64,000 bases of DNA from a bacterium (GCA_027487075.1 JAIYEG010000010.1:111270-175269), one strand, 5' to 3'. Shown: positions 8,857-63,462, counted from the first letter of the stretch. Notes: generated from the letters alone by a model not told the origin. Program-made: numbers and translations.

Positions 8857-8871
8857 ACATGTGATTGAGGG

Positions 8872-8944
8872 AGCCACCTCTCGGATTTGAACCGAGGACC
8901 TTCACTTTACAAAAGTGTTGCTCTACCAACTGAGCTAAGGTGGC
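8872..8944 (-). tRNA. tRNA-Thr(UGU)
   Basis: GCCACCT-TA-GCTC-AGTTGGTA-GAGC-A-ACACT-TTTGTAA-AGTGA-AGGTC-CTCGG-TTCAAAT-CCGAG-AGGTGGC-T. It has a cloverleaf and anticodon TGT. Confidence 0.85.
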
Positions 8945-58233: not shown

Positions 58234-58309
58234 TGGAGCCAAAGGGCGGGATCGAACCGCCGACCCTTCGCTTACGATGCGAATGCTCTACCAACTGAGC
58301 TACTTTGGC
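58234..58309 (-). tRNA. tRNA-Thr(CGU), CCA encoded
   Basis: GCCAAAG-TA-GCTC-AGTTGGTA-GAGC-A-TTCGC-ATCGTAA-GCGAA-GGGTC-GGCGG-TTCGATC-CCGCC-CTTTGGC-T-CCA. Confidence 0.85.
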
Positions 58310-61270: not shown

Positions 61271-61909
61271 CTACTTCGTCTGCTTGTAAAACCACGCGCC
61301 TCCAGCAAGTGTGGCAATGGTACCCACGATCACCATAGCAGATATTGCGAGAGGTGAAGGATCAAAGGTAAAGAATACTCCTGCAGACACAAGTACCACC
61401 GTAAGGGGAAGACCGACAATCACGTGAACAAGAATAAACTGTAGATATGACATTTTAGTAAGACCCGCTGCATAACACACCACCTCAGGCATCGGACTAA
61501 AGCATACACGCGCAAAAATATATCCTCTGAGTGATCCGAGCTTCGTAAGAATTTTTTGCATAAGCACATTTTCTTCTTTGATGAAGCGCGACGCAATGCG
61601 TATACCATAATGACGTGAGATATAAAACGCGATGGTGCCTCCAAGTGCATCGCCGATCATAAGCACCGTTAGACCTTGCCAAAATCCAAACACGGCACCG
61701 GCAACAGGATACAACGCTGCTCCTGACAAAGGTGCAAAGACGATCGTCGCTGCTTTTGAAAGCACGAACATAAGTGGAGCGAGCACCCCAAAACGTGCCA
61801 CAAAACTTTGCACGTCCGCCAAGTCAAAATAGGTAAAAGCGATATAAATGAGCGCGAAGACAATCGCGAGTGAGACCACATTCTCAATAACGTCTTTGTA
61901 CTTTTTCAC
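61271..61909 (-). CDS. DedA/TVP38/TMEM64 (VTT-domain) membrane protein
   Basis: The ORF 61271..61963 starts inside the tRNA 3' exon. A GTG at 61909, 3 nt after the tRNA end, or a downstream start is more likely. The VTT domain has the motif FVLSKAATIVFAPLSG. Confidence 0.6.
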   Translation of the reverse strand: MKKYKDVIENVVSLAIVFALIYIAFTYFDLADVQSFVARFGVLAPLMFVLSKAATIVFAPLSGAALYPVAGAVFGFWQGLTVLMIGDALGGTIAFYISRHYGIRIASRFIKEENVLMQKILTKLGSLRGYIFARVCFSPMPEVVCYAAGLTKMSYLQFILVHVIVGLPLTVVLVSAGVFFTFDPSPLAISAMVIVGTIATLAGGAWFYKQTK

Positions 61910-61911
61910 TG

Positions 61912-62178
61912 AGCCGTTGATCGGGATTGAACCGATGACCTTTTCCTTCGTTGATACCTCCACTTCGCAGTGCTTATAGGAGGACTAGACTGTATCTTAC
62001 GCATACTCTTATGAGTGAAGCGCCCCTTGTCAGTCGTTCGGGCTCATAGATAATCTATCGCCACGGTCTTACCCACGTGTGTGGACTTTAACCGTTATTC
62101 GGGCTTCATTCTGCAGTTTCCCGCAGAGAGGGCTATGCAATAACCATGGAAATGCTCTACCAACTGAGCTACAACGGC
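61912..62178 (-). tRNA. tRNA-Thr(GGU) interrupted in the anticodon loop by a 194-nt group I intron
   Basis: The 5' exon is GCCGTTG-TA-GCTC-AGTTGGTA-GAGC-A-TTTCC-ATGGT (62178..62143). The 3' exon is AA-GGAAA-AGGTC-ATCGG-TTCAATC-CCGAT-CAACGGC-T (61948..61912). Joined, they give a canonical 73-nt cloverleaf with the anticodon loop ATGGTAA. Confidence 0.75.
61949..62142 (-). mobile_element. Group I self-splicing intron within the tRNA-Thr anticodon loop, between positions 36 and 37
   Basis: Core elements are present: P-like TGCGGGAAA, Q-like CTGCAG, R-like CGAACGACTGACAAGG, and S-like AAGATACAGTCTAGTCC with P7 GACTG/CAGTC. The 5' exon ends in U, which can pair with the G of an internal guide GCC 10 nt into the intron. 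The intron ends in G (omega-G). Confidence 0.7.
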
Positions 62179-62210
62179 TTGTAACGTGCCAACGCATAGT
62201 ACCCGATTTA

Positions 62211-62798
62211 TTAAATATTTTCAATAACCTTACTAATAGAGGTTTTAAGCTTCATATTATTGAAATACACCGTCAAAACCCCATGTTCAGATTTTCTACC
62301 ATAACTACCCTTTCCTCTTATCTGACTCACCACAATTGATGGATAAAAGTAGTCTAAACTAAAACCCAATTCCTTAGACCAAAATTGAAGAGCGACATTT
62401 GGATCAATATCGTTAAATATTTGTAAACCAAACCTCAACTTAGTGGCATCAATTTTATAAGTGTGTATTAAAAATTTTATGAACATTTTTATCAAACTCG
62501 GATCAGTATTTCCCAACCTTACTGAATACTTATTCCTTTTATTACCCTCACCCCAAAATAATCCAATACCTAAACCAAATAAAAAATCATCATAATTACT
62601 AATGTTTTGCGGAAGAGTAAATGGATCACCTTTTATATTGTTTTTAATATAAATTGATTCTGAAATTGATCTTTTCTCAATATTAAATTTTTTCAACCAG
62701 TAATTTACTTTTGAAACTGTGTAATTTACATCAAGCGCGATTTCAGCAGCTGATTTTTTATTACTTACATATTCTCTATACAAGTATTCTTTATCCAC
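62211..62798 (-). CDS. Free-standing putative LAGLIDADG-like homing endonuclease, AT-rich, immediately upstream of the intron-containing tRNA
   Basis: 195 aa. Residues 1-45 are helix-turn-helix-like. The motif DFLFGLGIGLFWGEGNK fits a degenerate LAGLIDADG (GIGLFWGEG), followed by a basic beta-saddle-like region. GC is about 30 percent. Confidence 0.45.
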   Translation of the reverse strand: MDKEYLYREYVSNKKSAAEIALDVNYTVSKVNYWLKKFNIEKRSISESIYIKNNIKGDPFTLPQNISNYDDFLFGLGIGLFWGEGNKRNKYSVRLGNTDPSLIKMFIKFLIHTYKIDATKLRFGLQIFNDIDPNVALQFWSKELGFSLDYFYPSIVVSQIRGKGSYGRKSEHGVLTVYFNNMKLKTSISKVIENI

Positions 62799-62838
62799 TC
62801 ATTTATTATGAGTTCTCAAGATAAAGAAAACATAAAGA

Positions 62839-63462
62839 CTAATCCTTCACCGCCTCAACCAATGCCTTATGAATGATATTGGTACTTGCAGGAACGAGAT
62901 TGAAGAGGATTCCTGCAGCAAACAGCACGATAGAAATCACCGGACTAATAAACGAAAGCACCACTCCGAAGAGCGCTGTCACCACCGGAAAAAGAATACG
63001 CACATACCCACTCACTTTTTCGTCAAGATGAAATTGCTCGGTCTCTATCTTAGGATGTTCTTCGATATAGCGACGCATAAAGAAGAGGGTCATACCGATG
63101 AGAATAACGTTTGTACCATAGATAATGATGGCGGCTTGATTATAGACATGCTCACCAAGAAGACCCGCAGTGAATGGCACGAGTACAATGAGGAAGAAAA
63201 AGAGTGCATTCCAGTTTGCAAGACCGACGTTCAACGTCTTTGCATAGACTGACACCAAAAAGTGATGAGCGCGCCAGTACGTAAAGAGAAGTGCAAATGA
63301 AAGGGTGAGGCTCACGAAGACATGTGACATGTTGACAACCGCAATCCAGATGTCAGTAGGATCCACAATATTGCCATGAGGCACCTTGAGCTCAAAAGCA
63401 AGGATAGTCATAACGATGGCAAAGATTCCGTCGGCGAGGCCGTTCAAGCGCTGTTGTTGCAT
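62839..63462 (-). CDS. TMEM175/DUF1211 family potassium-channel-like membrane protein
   Basis: 207 aa with RLNGLADGIFAIVMTILAFEL, the RxxxFSD-like signature helix, and 6 TM helices. Confidence 0.7.
   Translation of the reverse strand: MQQQRLNGLADGIFAIVMTILAFELKVPHGNIVDPTDIWIAVVNMSHVFVSLTLSFALLFTYWRAHHFLVSVYAKTLNVGLANWNALFFFLIVLVPFTAGLLGEHVYNQAAIIIYGTNVILIGMTLFFMRRYIEEHPKIETEQFHLDEKVSGYVRILFPVVTALFGVVLSFISPVISIVLFAAGILFNLVPASTNIIHKALVEAVKD

What the first reader, a model, noticed from the sequence alone, without database searches (positions are those of the whole stretch)
62211..62798. AT-rich free-standing LAGLIDADG-like endonuclease gene parked next to the intron-bearing tRNA
The 195-aa ORF immediately upstream of the intron-containing tRNA (same strand) is about 30 percent GC against about 45 percent locally. 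It has an N-terminal HTH-like segment and the motif LFGLGIGLFWGEG, which fits a degenerate single LAGLIDADG. This is the size of a homodimeric I-CreI-type enzyme. Group I introns normally carry their homing endonuclease inside a loop. Here the intron is ORF-less and the candidate endonuclease is outside it, an intron plus trans-acting (collaborative) endonuclease arrangement. That arrangement is known mostly from phage systems and would be a mobility pair in a cellular tRNA gene.
Basis: partly seen in the sequence, partly recalled or inferred. Interest (0 to 1): 0.75.

Follow-up and report, generated by a model that had tools for sequence, protein, structure and literature searches.

The report
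Homing-endonuclease-like gene locked to tRNA-Thr
The AT-rich 195-aa gene is a real, unannotated member of a large Patescibacteria family (helix-turn-helix plus one LAGLIDADG-like domain) that always sits directly in front of a threonine tRNA gene, comes and goes like a selfish homing-endonuclease gene, and is often but not always accompanied by a small ORF-less group I intron in that tRNA.

Summary
The ORF is at 62211-62798 (-), 195 aa, 28.9% GC against 46.5% in the flanks. It lies 32 nt upstream of a split tRNA-Thr(GGU) carrying a 194-nt insert after nucleotide 36.

The family occurs in at least 520 species genomes, nearly all Patescibacteria. In 83 of 85 loci it sits immediately 5' of tRNA-Thr(GGU): 59 with the intron, 24 without. 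Divergent subfamilies flank tRNA-Thr(UGU), tRNA-Thr(CGU) and an intron-bearing tRNA-Tyr, and distant relatives lie in phage tRNA arrays.

Starting from the intron instead, 32 of 92 loci have an intact ORF, 13 have relics and 47 have none. Syntenic relatives of this genome lack the ORF, the intron, or both.

Best reading: a free-standing LAGLIDADG-type homing-endonuclease gene resident at tRNA-Thr, with the intron as a frequent passenger. The strict model in which the intron protects the cleavage site is not supported. Nuclease activity is untested.

The parts
62211..62798 (-). 195-aa ORF (GTG start, TAA stop). Member of an unannotated HTH + LAGLIDADG-like family.
   Evidence: ORF; 731 homologues, no names, no Pfam domains; at least 520 species genomes.
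62640..62798 (-). N-terminal helix-turn-helix DNA-binding domain (residues 1-53, four helices).
62214..62603 (-). C-terminal LAGLIDADG-like domain (residues 66-195).
62538..62582 (-). Motif LFGLGIGLFWGEGNK (residues 73-87). E84 is the putative metal-binding acid and K87 is conserved.
   Evidence: Invariant columns. Aligned to I-DmoI GLYVAEGDK, E117 and K120.
62226..62839 (.). 614-nt segment (40-nt leader plus almost the whole ORF) that is absent from the syntenic relative L221.
   Evidence: In blastn, window 63462..62840 matches L221 2501..3123 and window 62225..62143 matches L221 3124..3207, so the two matches are contiguous in L221. No flanking direct or inverted repeats.
62196..62224 (-). 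Promoter-like site TTGAAA-17-TACTAT for the tRNA. The -35 box overlaps the last ORF codons (ATT GAA AAT ATT TAA).
   Evidence: Consensus scan, not significant on its own. The same element is conserved in the ORF-less relatives L221 and L223 and recurs in many ORF loci.
62143..62178 (-). tRNA-Thr(GGU) 5' exon (nucleotides 1-36, ends in U36).
   Evidence: Sequence. 100% identical over 38 nt to the intron-less tRNA of L222.
61949..62142 (-). 194-nt ORF-less divergent group I intron inserted at 36/37 (ends in G).
   Evidence: Clean insertion relative to L221 and L222. Consensus fold of 36 homologues has P1 with U36-G in 36/36 and 38 covarying pairs. This class is described in PMC13011429.
61912..61948 (-). 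tRNA-Thr(GGU) 3' exon (nucleotide 37 to the discriminator).

Best explanation
The ORF is a free-standing, LAGLIDADG-type homing-endonuclease gene, or a very recent derivative that is still under selection. It lives in one genomic niche, the immediate 5' flank of tRNA-Thr(GGU).

Inferred mechanism:
- The protein has one LAGLIDADG domain and so probably acts as a homodimer. The N-terminal HTH would add extra DNA contacts.
- It recognises conserved DNA in or next to a tRNA-Thr gene that lacks the element, and cuts it.
- Recombinational repair from an element-bearing copy then copies in the gene together with neighbouring DNA.
- The ORF-less group I intron lies only 83 nt downstream, inside any plausible co-conversion tract. 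It therefore spreads and persists as a frequent passenger (trans-homing or hitch-hiking). It is not an obligatory immunity device.
- The 3' end of the gene carries the -35 box of the tRNA promoter. This would explain why deletions leave C-terminal relics.

Shown here: domain architecture and fold class, the invariant acidic residue, the fixed position, the association with the intron, presence/absence and decay, purifying selection on intact copies, and low GC.

Inferred only: nuclease activity, dimerisation, where the enzyme cuts, and homing itself.
For: Fold
- The family profile's only non-HTH hit among 177,635 solved-structure sequences is I-DmoI, at its second LAGLIDADG motif, with E84 on E117. 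hhalign gives E=0.0014.
- Weak LAGLIDADG_3 hits occur in 7 of 48 members.
- E84, K87 and N97 are invariant in 82/82 unique ORFs.

Site specificity
- In 83 of 85 loci tRNA-Thr(GGU) starts within a few tens of nt of the ORF's end or overlaps it. The stop codon is often the tRNA's own U8-A9-G10.
- Subfamilies at 27-33% identity sit before tRNA-Thr(UGU), tRNA-Thr(CGU) and a tRNA-Tyr with a canonical group I intron (RF00028, 83 bits).
- Five distant viral relatives lie in or next to phage tRNA genes, three of them inside arrays of 3-10 tRNA genes.

Selfish-element life cycle
- Of 92 intron-bearing tRNA-Thr(GGU) loci found independently of the ORF, 32 have an intact ORF, 13 have truncated or degenerate copies (mostly C-terminal relics abutting the tRNA) and 47 have none.
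- L094 lacks about 500 nt of the ORF relative to L090, with the aligned flanks 83-92% identical.
- In this genome's own clade (neighbouring gene 74-83% identical), L221 and L222 have neither ORF nor intron. L223 has the intron plus a relic 'VKTLIENI'.
- No target-site duplication or terminal repeats, so this is not a transposon.

Composition and constraint
- The ORF is AT-richer than its flanks in 79/79 loci.
- Intact copies have dN/dS of 0.03-0.11.

Precedent
- T4 SegB is a free-standing endonuclease inserted between tRNA genes, and promoters embedded in endonuclease genes favour their retention (PMC2988022).
Against: - The second-best structural match, WhiA, is a LAGLIDADG-derived transcription factor with an HTH and is not a nuclease.
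- The predicted beta1-beta2 DNA-binding hairpin is shortened and an extra helix is inserted.
- dN/dS below 0.1 and about 30 invariant residues across a phylum are unusually strong constraint for a purely selfish gene.
- ORF GC tracks host GC (r=0.83). Related hosts tend to carry related ORFs. This points to long vertical residence, and no clear horizontal transfer was demonstrated.
- It is unclear how element-bearing chromosomes would be immune, because the tRNA sequence is unchanged.
- No relative was found in cultured-phage genomes.
Confidence: 0.58

Rival explanations
1. Strict collaborative homing. The enzyme cuts the uninterrupted anticodon loop of tRNA-Thr(GGU) at the intron insertion site. 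The intron disrupts that site and protects its carrier, so ORF and intron form an obligate two-part mobile element.
For: - The intron is present in 59 of 83 ORF loci, against about 3% of complete Patescibacteria genomes (PMC13011429).
- A second subfamily is paired with a canonical group I intron in tRNA-Tyr.
- Intron-bearing exons are C30C31/G39G40 in 56 of 59 loci, against 4 of 24 intron-less ORF loci. This could mean that intron-less carriers survive only with resistant arms.
- The anticodon arm is a natural pseudo-palindrome centred 1-2 nt from the insertion site, which would suit a homodimer (inference).
- The mechanism is known in phages: F-CphI with psbA (PMC6083498) and mobE with I-TevIII (PMC2790892).
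Against: - 24 of 83 ORF loci have no intron, yet keep E84, K87 and N97.
- L046, L054, L075, L069 and L050 combine an intact ORF with an uninterrupted arm that is identical to, or of the same type as, the exons of intron-bearing loci. L046 matches L057 over at least 30 bp.
- Whole ORF clades, such as the Peribacteria-labelled one, are intron-less.
- Subfamilies at tRNA-Thr(UGU) and tRNA-Thr(CGU) have no intron.
- The CC/GG bias can equally be a requirement of the intron's own P1/P10 pairing.
Confidence: 0.15
2. A domesticated, WhiA-like DNA-binding protein (HTH plus an inactive or repurposed LAGLIDADG domain) that regulates transcription of the adjacent tRNA-Thr gene, whose promoter overlaps the ORF's own 3' end.
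For: - Purifying selection is strong (dN/dS 0.03-0.11).
- The position relative to the tRNA promoter is invariant.
- ORF GC co-varies with host GC.
Against: - The family is present in only a minority of Patescibacteria and is repeatedly deleted without loss of the tRNA.
- Close syntenic relatives do without it.
- The catalytic-type E-G-x-K is invariant, whereas in my recollection WhiA has lost the acidic residues (not checked here).
- The ORF has consistently lower GC than host genes.
- Relatives lie scattered in phage tRNA arrays.
- There is no obvious reason for one tRNA isoacceptor to need a private regulator.
Confidence: 0.14
3. A free-standing maturase or RNA chaperone that helps the small, divergent group I intron (or the pre-tRNA) to fold and splice, as some LAGLIDADG proteins do in organelles.
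For: - The intron is short (169-212 nt) and too divergent for RF00028 (PMC13011429).
- ORF and pre-tRNA are adjacent or overlapping and could be co-transcribed.
- ORF and intron are strongly associated.
Against: - Half of the intron-bearing loci have no ORF (47 of 92) and 13 more have only relics, so splicing cannot depend on it.
- 29% of ORF loci and whole subfamilies have no intron.
- An HTH and an invariant metal-site residue point to DNA.
Confidence: 0.06

Closest known systems
I-DmoI and related archaeal-intron and intein LAGLIDADG endonucleases (Pfam LAGLIDADG_3 type; PDB 1b24, 2vs8, 7qsu, 2dch)
   Same: - The motif G-L-Y-x-[AG]-E-G-[DN]-K, then a strand, then an N-x-[DN]-x-x-L-[IL] helix, aligns residue for residue with the second I-DmoI motif, including E117 and K120.
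   Different: - One LAGLIDADG domain rather than two, with an extra N-terminal HTH.
- Shortened beta1-beta2 hairpin and one inserted helix.
- Not inside an intron or intein.
- Below every Pfam threshold.
- Activity unknown.
Phage T4 SegB (free-standing GIY-YIG homing endonuclease in the tRNA gene cluster)
   Same: - A free-standing endonuclease gene inserted between or next to tRNA genes and targeting the tRNA region of genomes that lack it (PMC2988022, Table 1).
- The present family's viral relatives also lie in phage tRNA arrays.
   Different: - A different nuclease family (GIY-YIG rather than LAGLIDADG-like).
- A phage rather than a bacterial chromosome.
- SegB activity is demonstrated, and here it is not.
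Collaborative or trans homing: F-CphI with the psbA intron of cyanophage S-PM2, and mobE with the I-TevIII-defective nrdB intron of T4
   Same: An ORF-less self-splicing group I intron with a free-standing endonuclease gene beside the interrupted gene (PMC6083498, PMC2790892, PMC2988022). The ORF-intron association here is strong and recurs at tRNA-Tyr.
   Different: - Cellular tRNA genes rather than phage protein-coding genes.
- The endonuclease gene persists widely without the intron, and alongside an intact insertion site. The intron is therefore not needed for immunity.
WhiA (DUF199), a LAGLIDADG-derived transcription factor of Gram-positive bacteria
   Different: - WhiA has two degenerate LAGLIDADG domains and a C-terminal HTH. 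In my recollection it is near-universal in its phyla and lacks the catalytic acids.
- This family has one domain and an N-terminal HTH, keeps an invariant E, and is patchy and decaying.
LAGLIDADG endonucleases encoded inside rRNA introns of CPR/Patescibacteria (Brown 2015 and Tsurumaki 2024, as cited in PMC13011429)
   Same: Same phylum and same broad enzyme class, linked to group I introns in stable-RNA genes.
   Different: Those are intron-encoded, in rRNA genes, and recognised by Pfam. This family is outside the intron, at tRNA genes, and unannotated. PMC13011429 concluded that most tRNA introns lack endonuclease genes and did not examine flanking ORFs.

Membership tests
LAGLIDADG homing endonucleases | alpha-beta-beta-alpha-beta-beta-alpha core fold | tested here: met
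   [not shown]
LAGLIDADG homing endonucleases | LAGLIDADG helix ending in a conserved acidic metal ligand | tested here: met
   In GLGIGLFWGEG, E84 is invariant in 82/82 sequences. It aligns with the catalytic E117 of I-DmoI.
LAGLIDADG homing endonucleases | Match to a curated family model (Pfam LAGLIDADG_1, _2 or _3, or NCBIfam) above threshold | tested here: not met
   No hit for the window protein. LAGLIDADG_3 appears in 7 of 48 members, with best E=0.022, below the cut-off.
LAGLIDADG homing endonucleases | Two catalytic domains, by homodimerisation or tandem duplication | not testable with these tools
   Only one domain per chain. The dimer could not be modelled.
LAGLIDADG homing endonucleases | Site-specific double-strand cleavage with 4-nt 3' overhangs | not testable with these tools
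   Requires biochemistry.
Homing endonuclease genes as selfish elements (gain, decay and loss cycle) | Presence/absence polymorphism at a fixed site among related genomes, with degenerate copies | tested here: met
   32 intact, 13 relic and 47 absent among 92 intron-bearing loci. L094 against L090 shows a deletion. L221, L222 and L223 differ from the window.
Homing endonuclease genes as selfish elements (gain, decay and loss cycle) | Horizontal spread, seen as incongruence with the host phylogeny | tested here: inconclusive
   Lower GC than the host in 79/79 loci, but r=0.83 with host GC. The NJ tree partly follows the taxon labels. No species tree was available.
Collaborative homing pair (free-standing endonuclease plus ORF-less intron) | ORF-less self-splicing intron beside a free-standing endonuclease gene, co-occurring more often than chance | tested here: met
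   59 of 83 ORF loci carry the intron, against 3 of 95 genomes in PMC13011429. A second pairing occurs at tRNA-Tyr. The comparison is not corrected for phylogeny.
Collaborative homing pair (free-standing endonuclease plus ORF-less intron) | The endonuclease targets the intron insertion site and the intron confers immunity | tested here: inconclusive
   Indirect evidence against: intact ORFs coexist with uninterrupted arms of identical sequence in L046, L054, L075 and others. Cleavage was not tested.
Group I introns (the neighbouring insert) | U at -1 paired with G in P1, a terminal G, and a conserved paired core | tested here: met
   U36-G in 36/36 sequences. The intron ends in G in 58/59. There are 63 predicted pairs, 38 with compensatory changes.
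Group I introns (the neighbouring insert) | Match to Rfam RF00028 | tested here: not met
   No hit even at E<=10. PMC13011429 reports the same and calls these 'divergent group I introns', which are detected only by tFind's model. Self-splicing of the Thr type was not tested there or here.

The most novel reading that the evidence does not exclude
This family may be the first cellular (non-phage) case of trans or collaborative homing. A tRNA-gene-specific free-standing LAGLIDADG nuclease would mobilise itself and drag an ORF-less group I intron with it by co-conversion. That would explain how endonuclease-less tRNA introns became common across Patescibacteria. It would also capture the 'before fusion' stage in the proposed origin of mobile introns. 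The same family has radiated onto all three tRNA-Thr isoacceptors, onto tRNA-Tyr, and into phage tRNA arrays.
Probability: 0.3. Interest if true: 0.8.

Novelty: new variant of a known kind. Interest (0 to 1): 0.66.

Why it matters
A recent survey (PMC13011429) concluded that tRNA introns of Patescibacteria mostly lack homing-endonuclease genes and so move little. It looked only inside the introns.

Here a large, unnamed protein family turns out to be locked to the 5' flank of the very tRNA-Thr gene that hosts the 'divergent' intron. The family is in at least 520 species genomes and has no Pfam or NCBIfam model. It shows the gain, decay and loss pattern of a selfish endonuclease gene.

If the protein is an active nuclease, four things follow:
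1. It provides a mobility engine for ORF-less tRNA introns in bacterial chromosomes.
2. It adds a new architecture (HTH plus a single LAGLIDADG domain) and a new target class (chromosomal tRNA genes) to the meganuclease repertoire.
3. [quoted passage not shown] The series covers ORF present or absent, combined with intron present or absent.
4. It affects annotation. The split tRNA is missed by default tools, which bears on completeness estimates for these genomes.

Tried and rejected
- Rfam at gathering and at E<=10: no Intron_gpI hit for the insert. This was resolved by comparative folding and the literature.
- Pfam, NCBIfam and PHROGs on the single protein: no nuclease family. The PHROG 'HNH endonuclease' hits cover only the HTH, so HNH was rejected.
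- Foldseek against the PDB: only weak, unrelated alpha/beta folds such as YfiB and IspF. afdb50 was unavailable.
- Profile A1 against solved-structure sequences: only a nanobody by chance. The more diverse profiles A2 and A3 were needed to reach I-DmoI.
- The exhaustive profile search mainly returned family members and proteins made of tandem HTH repeats. It gave no bridge to annotated nucleases within the 150 listed.
- tblastn against 50,697 phage records: no match.
- Transposon-like insertion was rejected: no target-site duplication or terminal inverted repeats at the 614-nt insertion boundaries.
- All-against-all megablast of 200+ loci for near-identical ORF+/ORF- pairs found only L094/L153/L203 against L090 and L128 against L205. 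The cleaner empty sites came from the neighbour-gene approach.
- I could not confirm that P0002 (the closest ORF, 61% identical) and P0273 (the neighbour gene, 83% identical) are on the same 5112-bp contig.
- The idea that intron-less carriers are always protected by a different anticodon arm was rejected because of L046, L054, L075, L069 and L050.

Full report
**What is in the window**

The ORF at 62211-62798 (- strand) encodes 195 aa starting from GTG. GC drops to 0.27-0.31 across it, against 0.44-0.49 on both sides. The ORF is 28.9% GC and its flanks are 46.5%.

Thirty-two nt downstream on the same strand lies a split tRNA-Thr(GGU):
- 5' exon 62178..62143, ending in U36;
- a 194-nt insert, 62142..61949, ending in G;
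- 3' exon 61948..61912.

ARAGORN with default settings and Rfam (tRNA, Intron_gpI) do not call it.

The neighbouring genes are a TMEM175-like membrane protein upstream (62839-63462) and a VTT-domain protein downstream.

**What the protein is**

No Pfam or NCBIfam model matches. PHROG 'HNH endonuclease' families match only residues 1-84, which is the HTH.

The full-length AF2 model (pLDDT 88.6) has a four-helix HTH at residues 1-53 and then a separate alpha/beta domain.

Structure evidence for the C-terminal domain:
- PI-PfuI, I-CeuI, I-Vdi141I, I-CvuI, I-MsoI and I-CreI follow.
- Foldseek against the PDB found nothing significant.

Sequence evidence:
- Profiles that include divergent members hit only I-DmoI among 177,635 solved-structure sequences, apart from HTH proteins (E about 0.04).
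- The hit is always at the second I-DmoI LAGLIDADG motif, where GLYVAEGDK..LRIWNKNKALLEIV aligns with GLFWGEGNK..VRLGNTDPSLIKMF. This places E84 on the catalytic E117 and K87 on K120.
- The I-DmoI sequence I used was checked against PDB 1b24.
- Seven of 48 members give sub-threshold LAGLIDADG_3 hits.
- E84, K87 and N97 are invariant in 82 of 82 distinct ORFs.

I conclude that the architecture is an HTH plus one LAGLIDADG-type domain with the acidic motif residue retained. Two departures from the canonical fold are a shortened first hairpin and one inserted helix. Enzyme activity is not shown.

**The family and its address**

The family has at least 731 members at 90% clustering, none named. 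Nearly all are labelled Patescibacteria/CPR. A few short contigs sit in bins with other labels.

I scanned 85 loci (84 fetched loci plus the window) with intron-aware ARAGORN and then read the anticodon regions. In 83 of them the first downstream gene is tRNA-Thr(GGU). One locus has tRNA-Thr(CGU) and one is truncated. ARAGORN's 'tRNA-Arg(gcg)' calls are mis-placed splice sites, as PMC13011429 Table 1 also notes.

The ORF ends 0-50 nt before the tRNA or runs into it. A recurrent arrangement uses the tRNA's own U8-A9-G10 as the stop codon.

Of the 83 tRNAs, 59 carry a 169-212-nt insert at exactly 36/37, which ends in G in 58 of 59. The other 24 are uninterrupted.

More distant members were sampled individually:
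- P0212 (33% identity) lies 6 nt before tRNA-Thr(UGU).
- P0228 and P0189 (27-32%) overlap or precede tRNA-Thr(CGU).
- P0241 precedes an intron-bearing tRNA-Thr(GGU).
- P0270 reads into a tRNA-Tyr(GUA) that contains a canonical group I intron (RF00028, 83 bits).

Five relatives at 24-33% identity in IMG/VR contigs of 55-447 kb all lie within about 1 kb of tRNA genes. Three of them sit inside arrays of 3-10 tRNA genes.

**The intron**

The insert belongs to the class that PMC13011429 calls 'divergent group I introns' of tRNA-Thr(GGU) 36/37. That paper found it in 3 of 95 complete Patescibacteria genomes and reports that it is invisible to RF00028.

A consensus fold of 36 homologues shows P1 with an invariant U36-G pair, several helices, and 38 of 63 pairs with compensatory changes. 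Conserved blocks include CCGAATAACGGTTAA, GACCGTGGC, CCGAACGACTGACAAGG and AAGATACAGTCTA.

**Is the ORF tied to the intron?**

I searched metagenome contigs for the intron core alone, using a pattern that matches 57 of the 59 known copies. All 113 hits with a tRNA call are in tRNA-Thr(GGU).

Of the 92 with at least 700 nt upstream:
- 32 have an intact ORF;
- 13 have truncated or degenerate copies, mostly C-terminal relics of 25-100 residues abutting the tRNA;
- 47 have none. Three or four of these 47 carry very short relics scoring above the controls.

So the probability of an intron given the ORF is about 0.7, and of an ORF or relic given the intron about 0.5. The intron's background frequency is about 3%. 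This is a strong association, though I did not correct it for phylogeny.

The tie is not obligatory, however:
- Intron-less and intron-bearing loci are interleaved on the ORF tree.
- Whole clades are intron-less.
- L046, L054, L075, L069 and L050 combine an intact ORF with an uninterrupted anticodon arm. That arm is identical to, or of the same C30C31/G39G40 type as, the exons of intron-bearing loci.

Intron-bearing exons are C30C31/G39G40 in 56 of 59 loci, against 4 of 24 intron-less ones. That bias fits target-site selection, but it fits the intron's own pairing needs equally well.

**Presence/absence in this genome's own lineage**

Homologues of the upstream TMEM175-like gene at 74-83% identity define a clade. 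Four of its members were examined:
- L221 (78%) has TMEM175, then 47 nt, then an intron-less tRNA-Thr(GGU), then the VTT gene. It has no ORF and no intron.
- L222 (79%) also has neither. Its tRNA is 100% identical to the window's over 38 nt spanning the 36-nt 5' exon.
- L223 (74%) has the intron and no ORF. It retains codons reading VKTLIENI, which is the family's C-terminus.
- L220 (79%) has no tRNA next to the TMEM175 gene.

By blastn, the window differs from L221 by two clean insertions. One is 62839..62226 (614 nt: a 40-nt leader plus the ORF). The other is 62142..61949 (the intron). They are separated by 83 nt of shared promoter-like sequence and 5' exon. There are no flanking repeats.

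Elsewhere, L094 lacks about 500 nt of the ORF relative to L090, with the aligned flanks 83-92% identical.

**A promoter inside the gene's tail**

The last ORF codons (ATT GAA AAT ATT TAA) form the -35 box of a TTGAAA-17-TACTAT element that ends 18 nt before the tRNA.

The element is conserved in the ORF-less L221 and L223 and recurs in many loci. The consensus scan alone is not significant.

If the promoter is real, it explains why deletions stop short of the gene's 3' end. It also parallels the embedded promoters that stabilise T4 endonuclease genes (PMC2988022).

**Selection and composition**

Intact copies are under strong purifying selection, with dN/dS of 0.03-0.11 in 13 pairs.

The ORF is AT-richer than its flanks in 79 of 79 loci, yet its GC tracks host GC (r=0.83). 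This suggests long residence within lineages rather than frequent long-range transfer.

**Interpretation**

The best-supported reading (about 0.58) is a free-standing LAGLIDADG-type homing-endonuclease gene whose niche is the 5' flank of tRNA-Thr genes. The group I intron would be a frequent co-converted passenger.

Rivals:
- The strict collaborative model, in which the enzyme cuts the insertion site and the intron gives immunity, is a narrower version that the intron-less carriers argue against (about 0.15).
- A WhiA-like regulator of the tRNA promoter (about 0.14) would explain the strong constraint. It would not explain the patchiness, the decay, the invariant acidic residue or the phage relatives.
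- A maturase (about 0.06) conflicts with the many ORF-less introns and intron-less ORFs.

**Novelty**

I found no description of this family or of its linkage to tRNA-Thr. PMC13011429 and the tFind preprint discuss the intron but not the flanking ORFs. Searches for free-standing LAGLIDADG genes at tRNA genes returned only organelle and phage cases.

It is a new variant of a known kind: a new architecture and a new target niche for a LAGLIDADG-type free-standing element.

Noticed in passing
window 61912-62178 (-): The split tRNA-Thr(GGU) is missed by default ARAGORN and by the Rfam tRNA and Intron_gpI models. It may be the only tRNA-Thr(GGU) of this genome. The window also holds tRNA-Thr(UGU) at 8870-8944 and tRNA-Thr(CGU) at 58234-58309, neither with a family ORF in front.
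   Followed up: partly
many loci, e.g. L005, L012, L022, L039, L045: In about 20 loci the ORF's stop codon is the tRNA's own U8-A9-G10 (TAG). In others the frame runs through the 5' exon into the intron. RNase P cleavage of a co-transcript would then leave an mRNA without a stop codon, which could act as a built-in brake on expression.
   Followed up: no
L223:3192-3220: Upstream of the intron-bearing tRNA there is a degenerate duplicate of the tRNA's first ~27 nt (GCCGTTGTAGgtgttTTGGTAGgtATG). It may be a recombination or conversion footprint.
   Followed up: no
L215:1334-1412: Downstream of family member P0238 lies a tRNA-Thr(UGU)-like sequence whose 5' acceptor strand mismatches the 3' strand at two positions, and ARAGORN does not call it. 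This could be a chimeric tRNA left by a conversion tract that ended inside the gene. The locus also repeats a Thr-Tyr tRNA pair on both sides of the ORF.
   Followed up: no
L085-L089 (IMG/VR contigs of 55-447 kb): Distant relatives (24-33% identity) keep the LYWGEG[NT]K...NSDP motif. All lie within about 1 kb of tRNA genes, and three sit inside phage arrays of 3-10 tRNA genes. One (L088) runs into a tRNA-Thr(UGU) on the opposite strand.
   Followed up: partly
proteins P0131, P0135, P0137, P0161 and others: The exhaustive profile search found 360-820-aa proteins made of 5-14 tandem copies of the family's N-terminal HTH module and lacking the LAGLIDADG-like domain. Their function is unknown.
   Followed up: no
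proteins P0127 and P0145: Some family members carry a ~70-80-aa N-terminal extension with paired Cys motifs (CxxC...CSxxC), which looks like a zinc-binding DNA-binding add-on.
   Followed up: no
window 61271-61963 (-): The mechanical 230-aa ORF call for the VTT-domain gene starts inside the intron and 3' exon. Comparison with L221 suggests the real start is the GTG at about 61909, directly after the tRNA.
   Followed up: partly
L210:1045-2195: One contig carries an intron-bearing tRNA-Thr(GGU), then 185 nt later a divergent family ORF (P0212), then tRNA-Thr(UGU). Different isoacceptor genes in one cluster can therefore each be associated with the elements.
   Followed up: no
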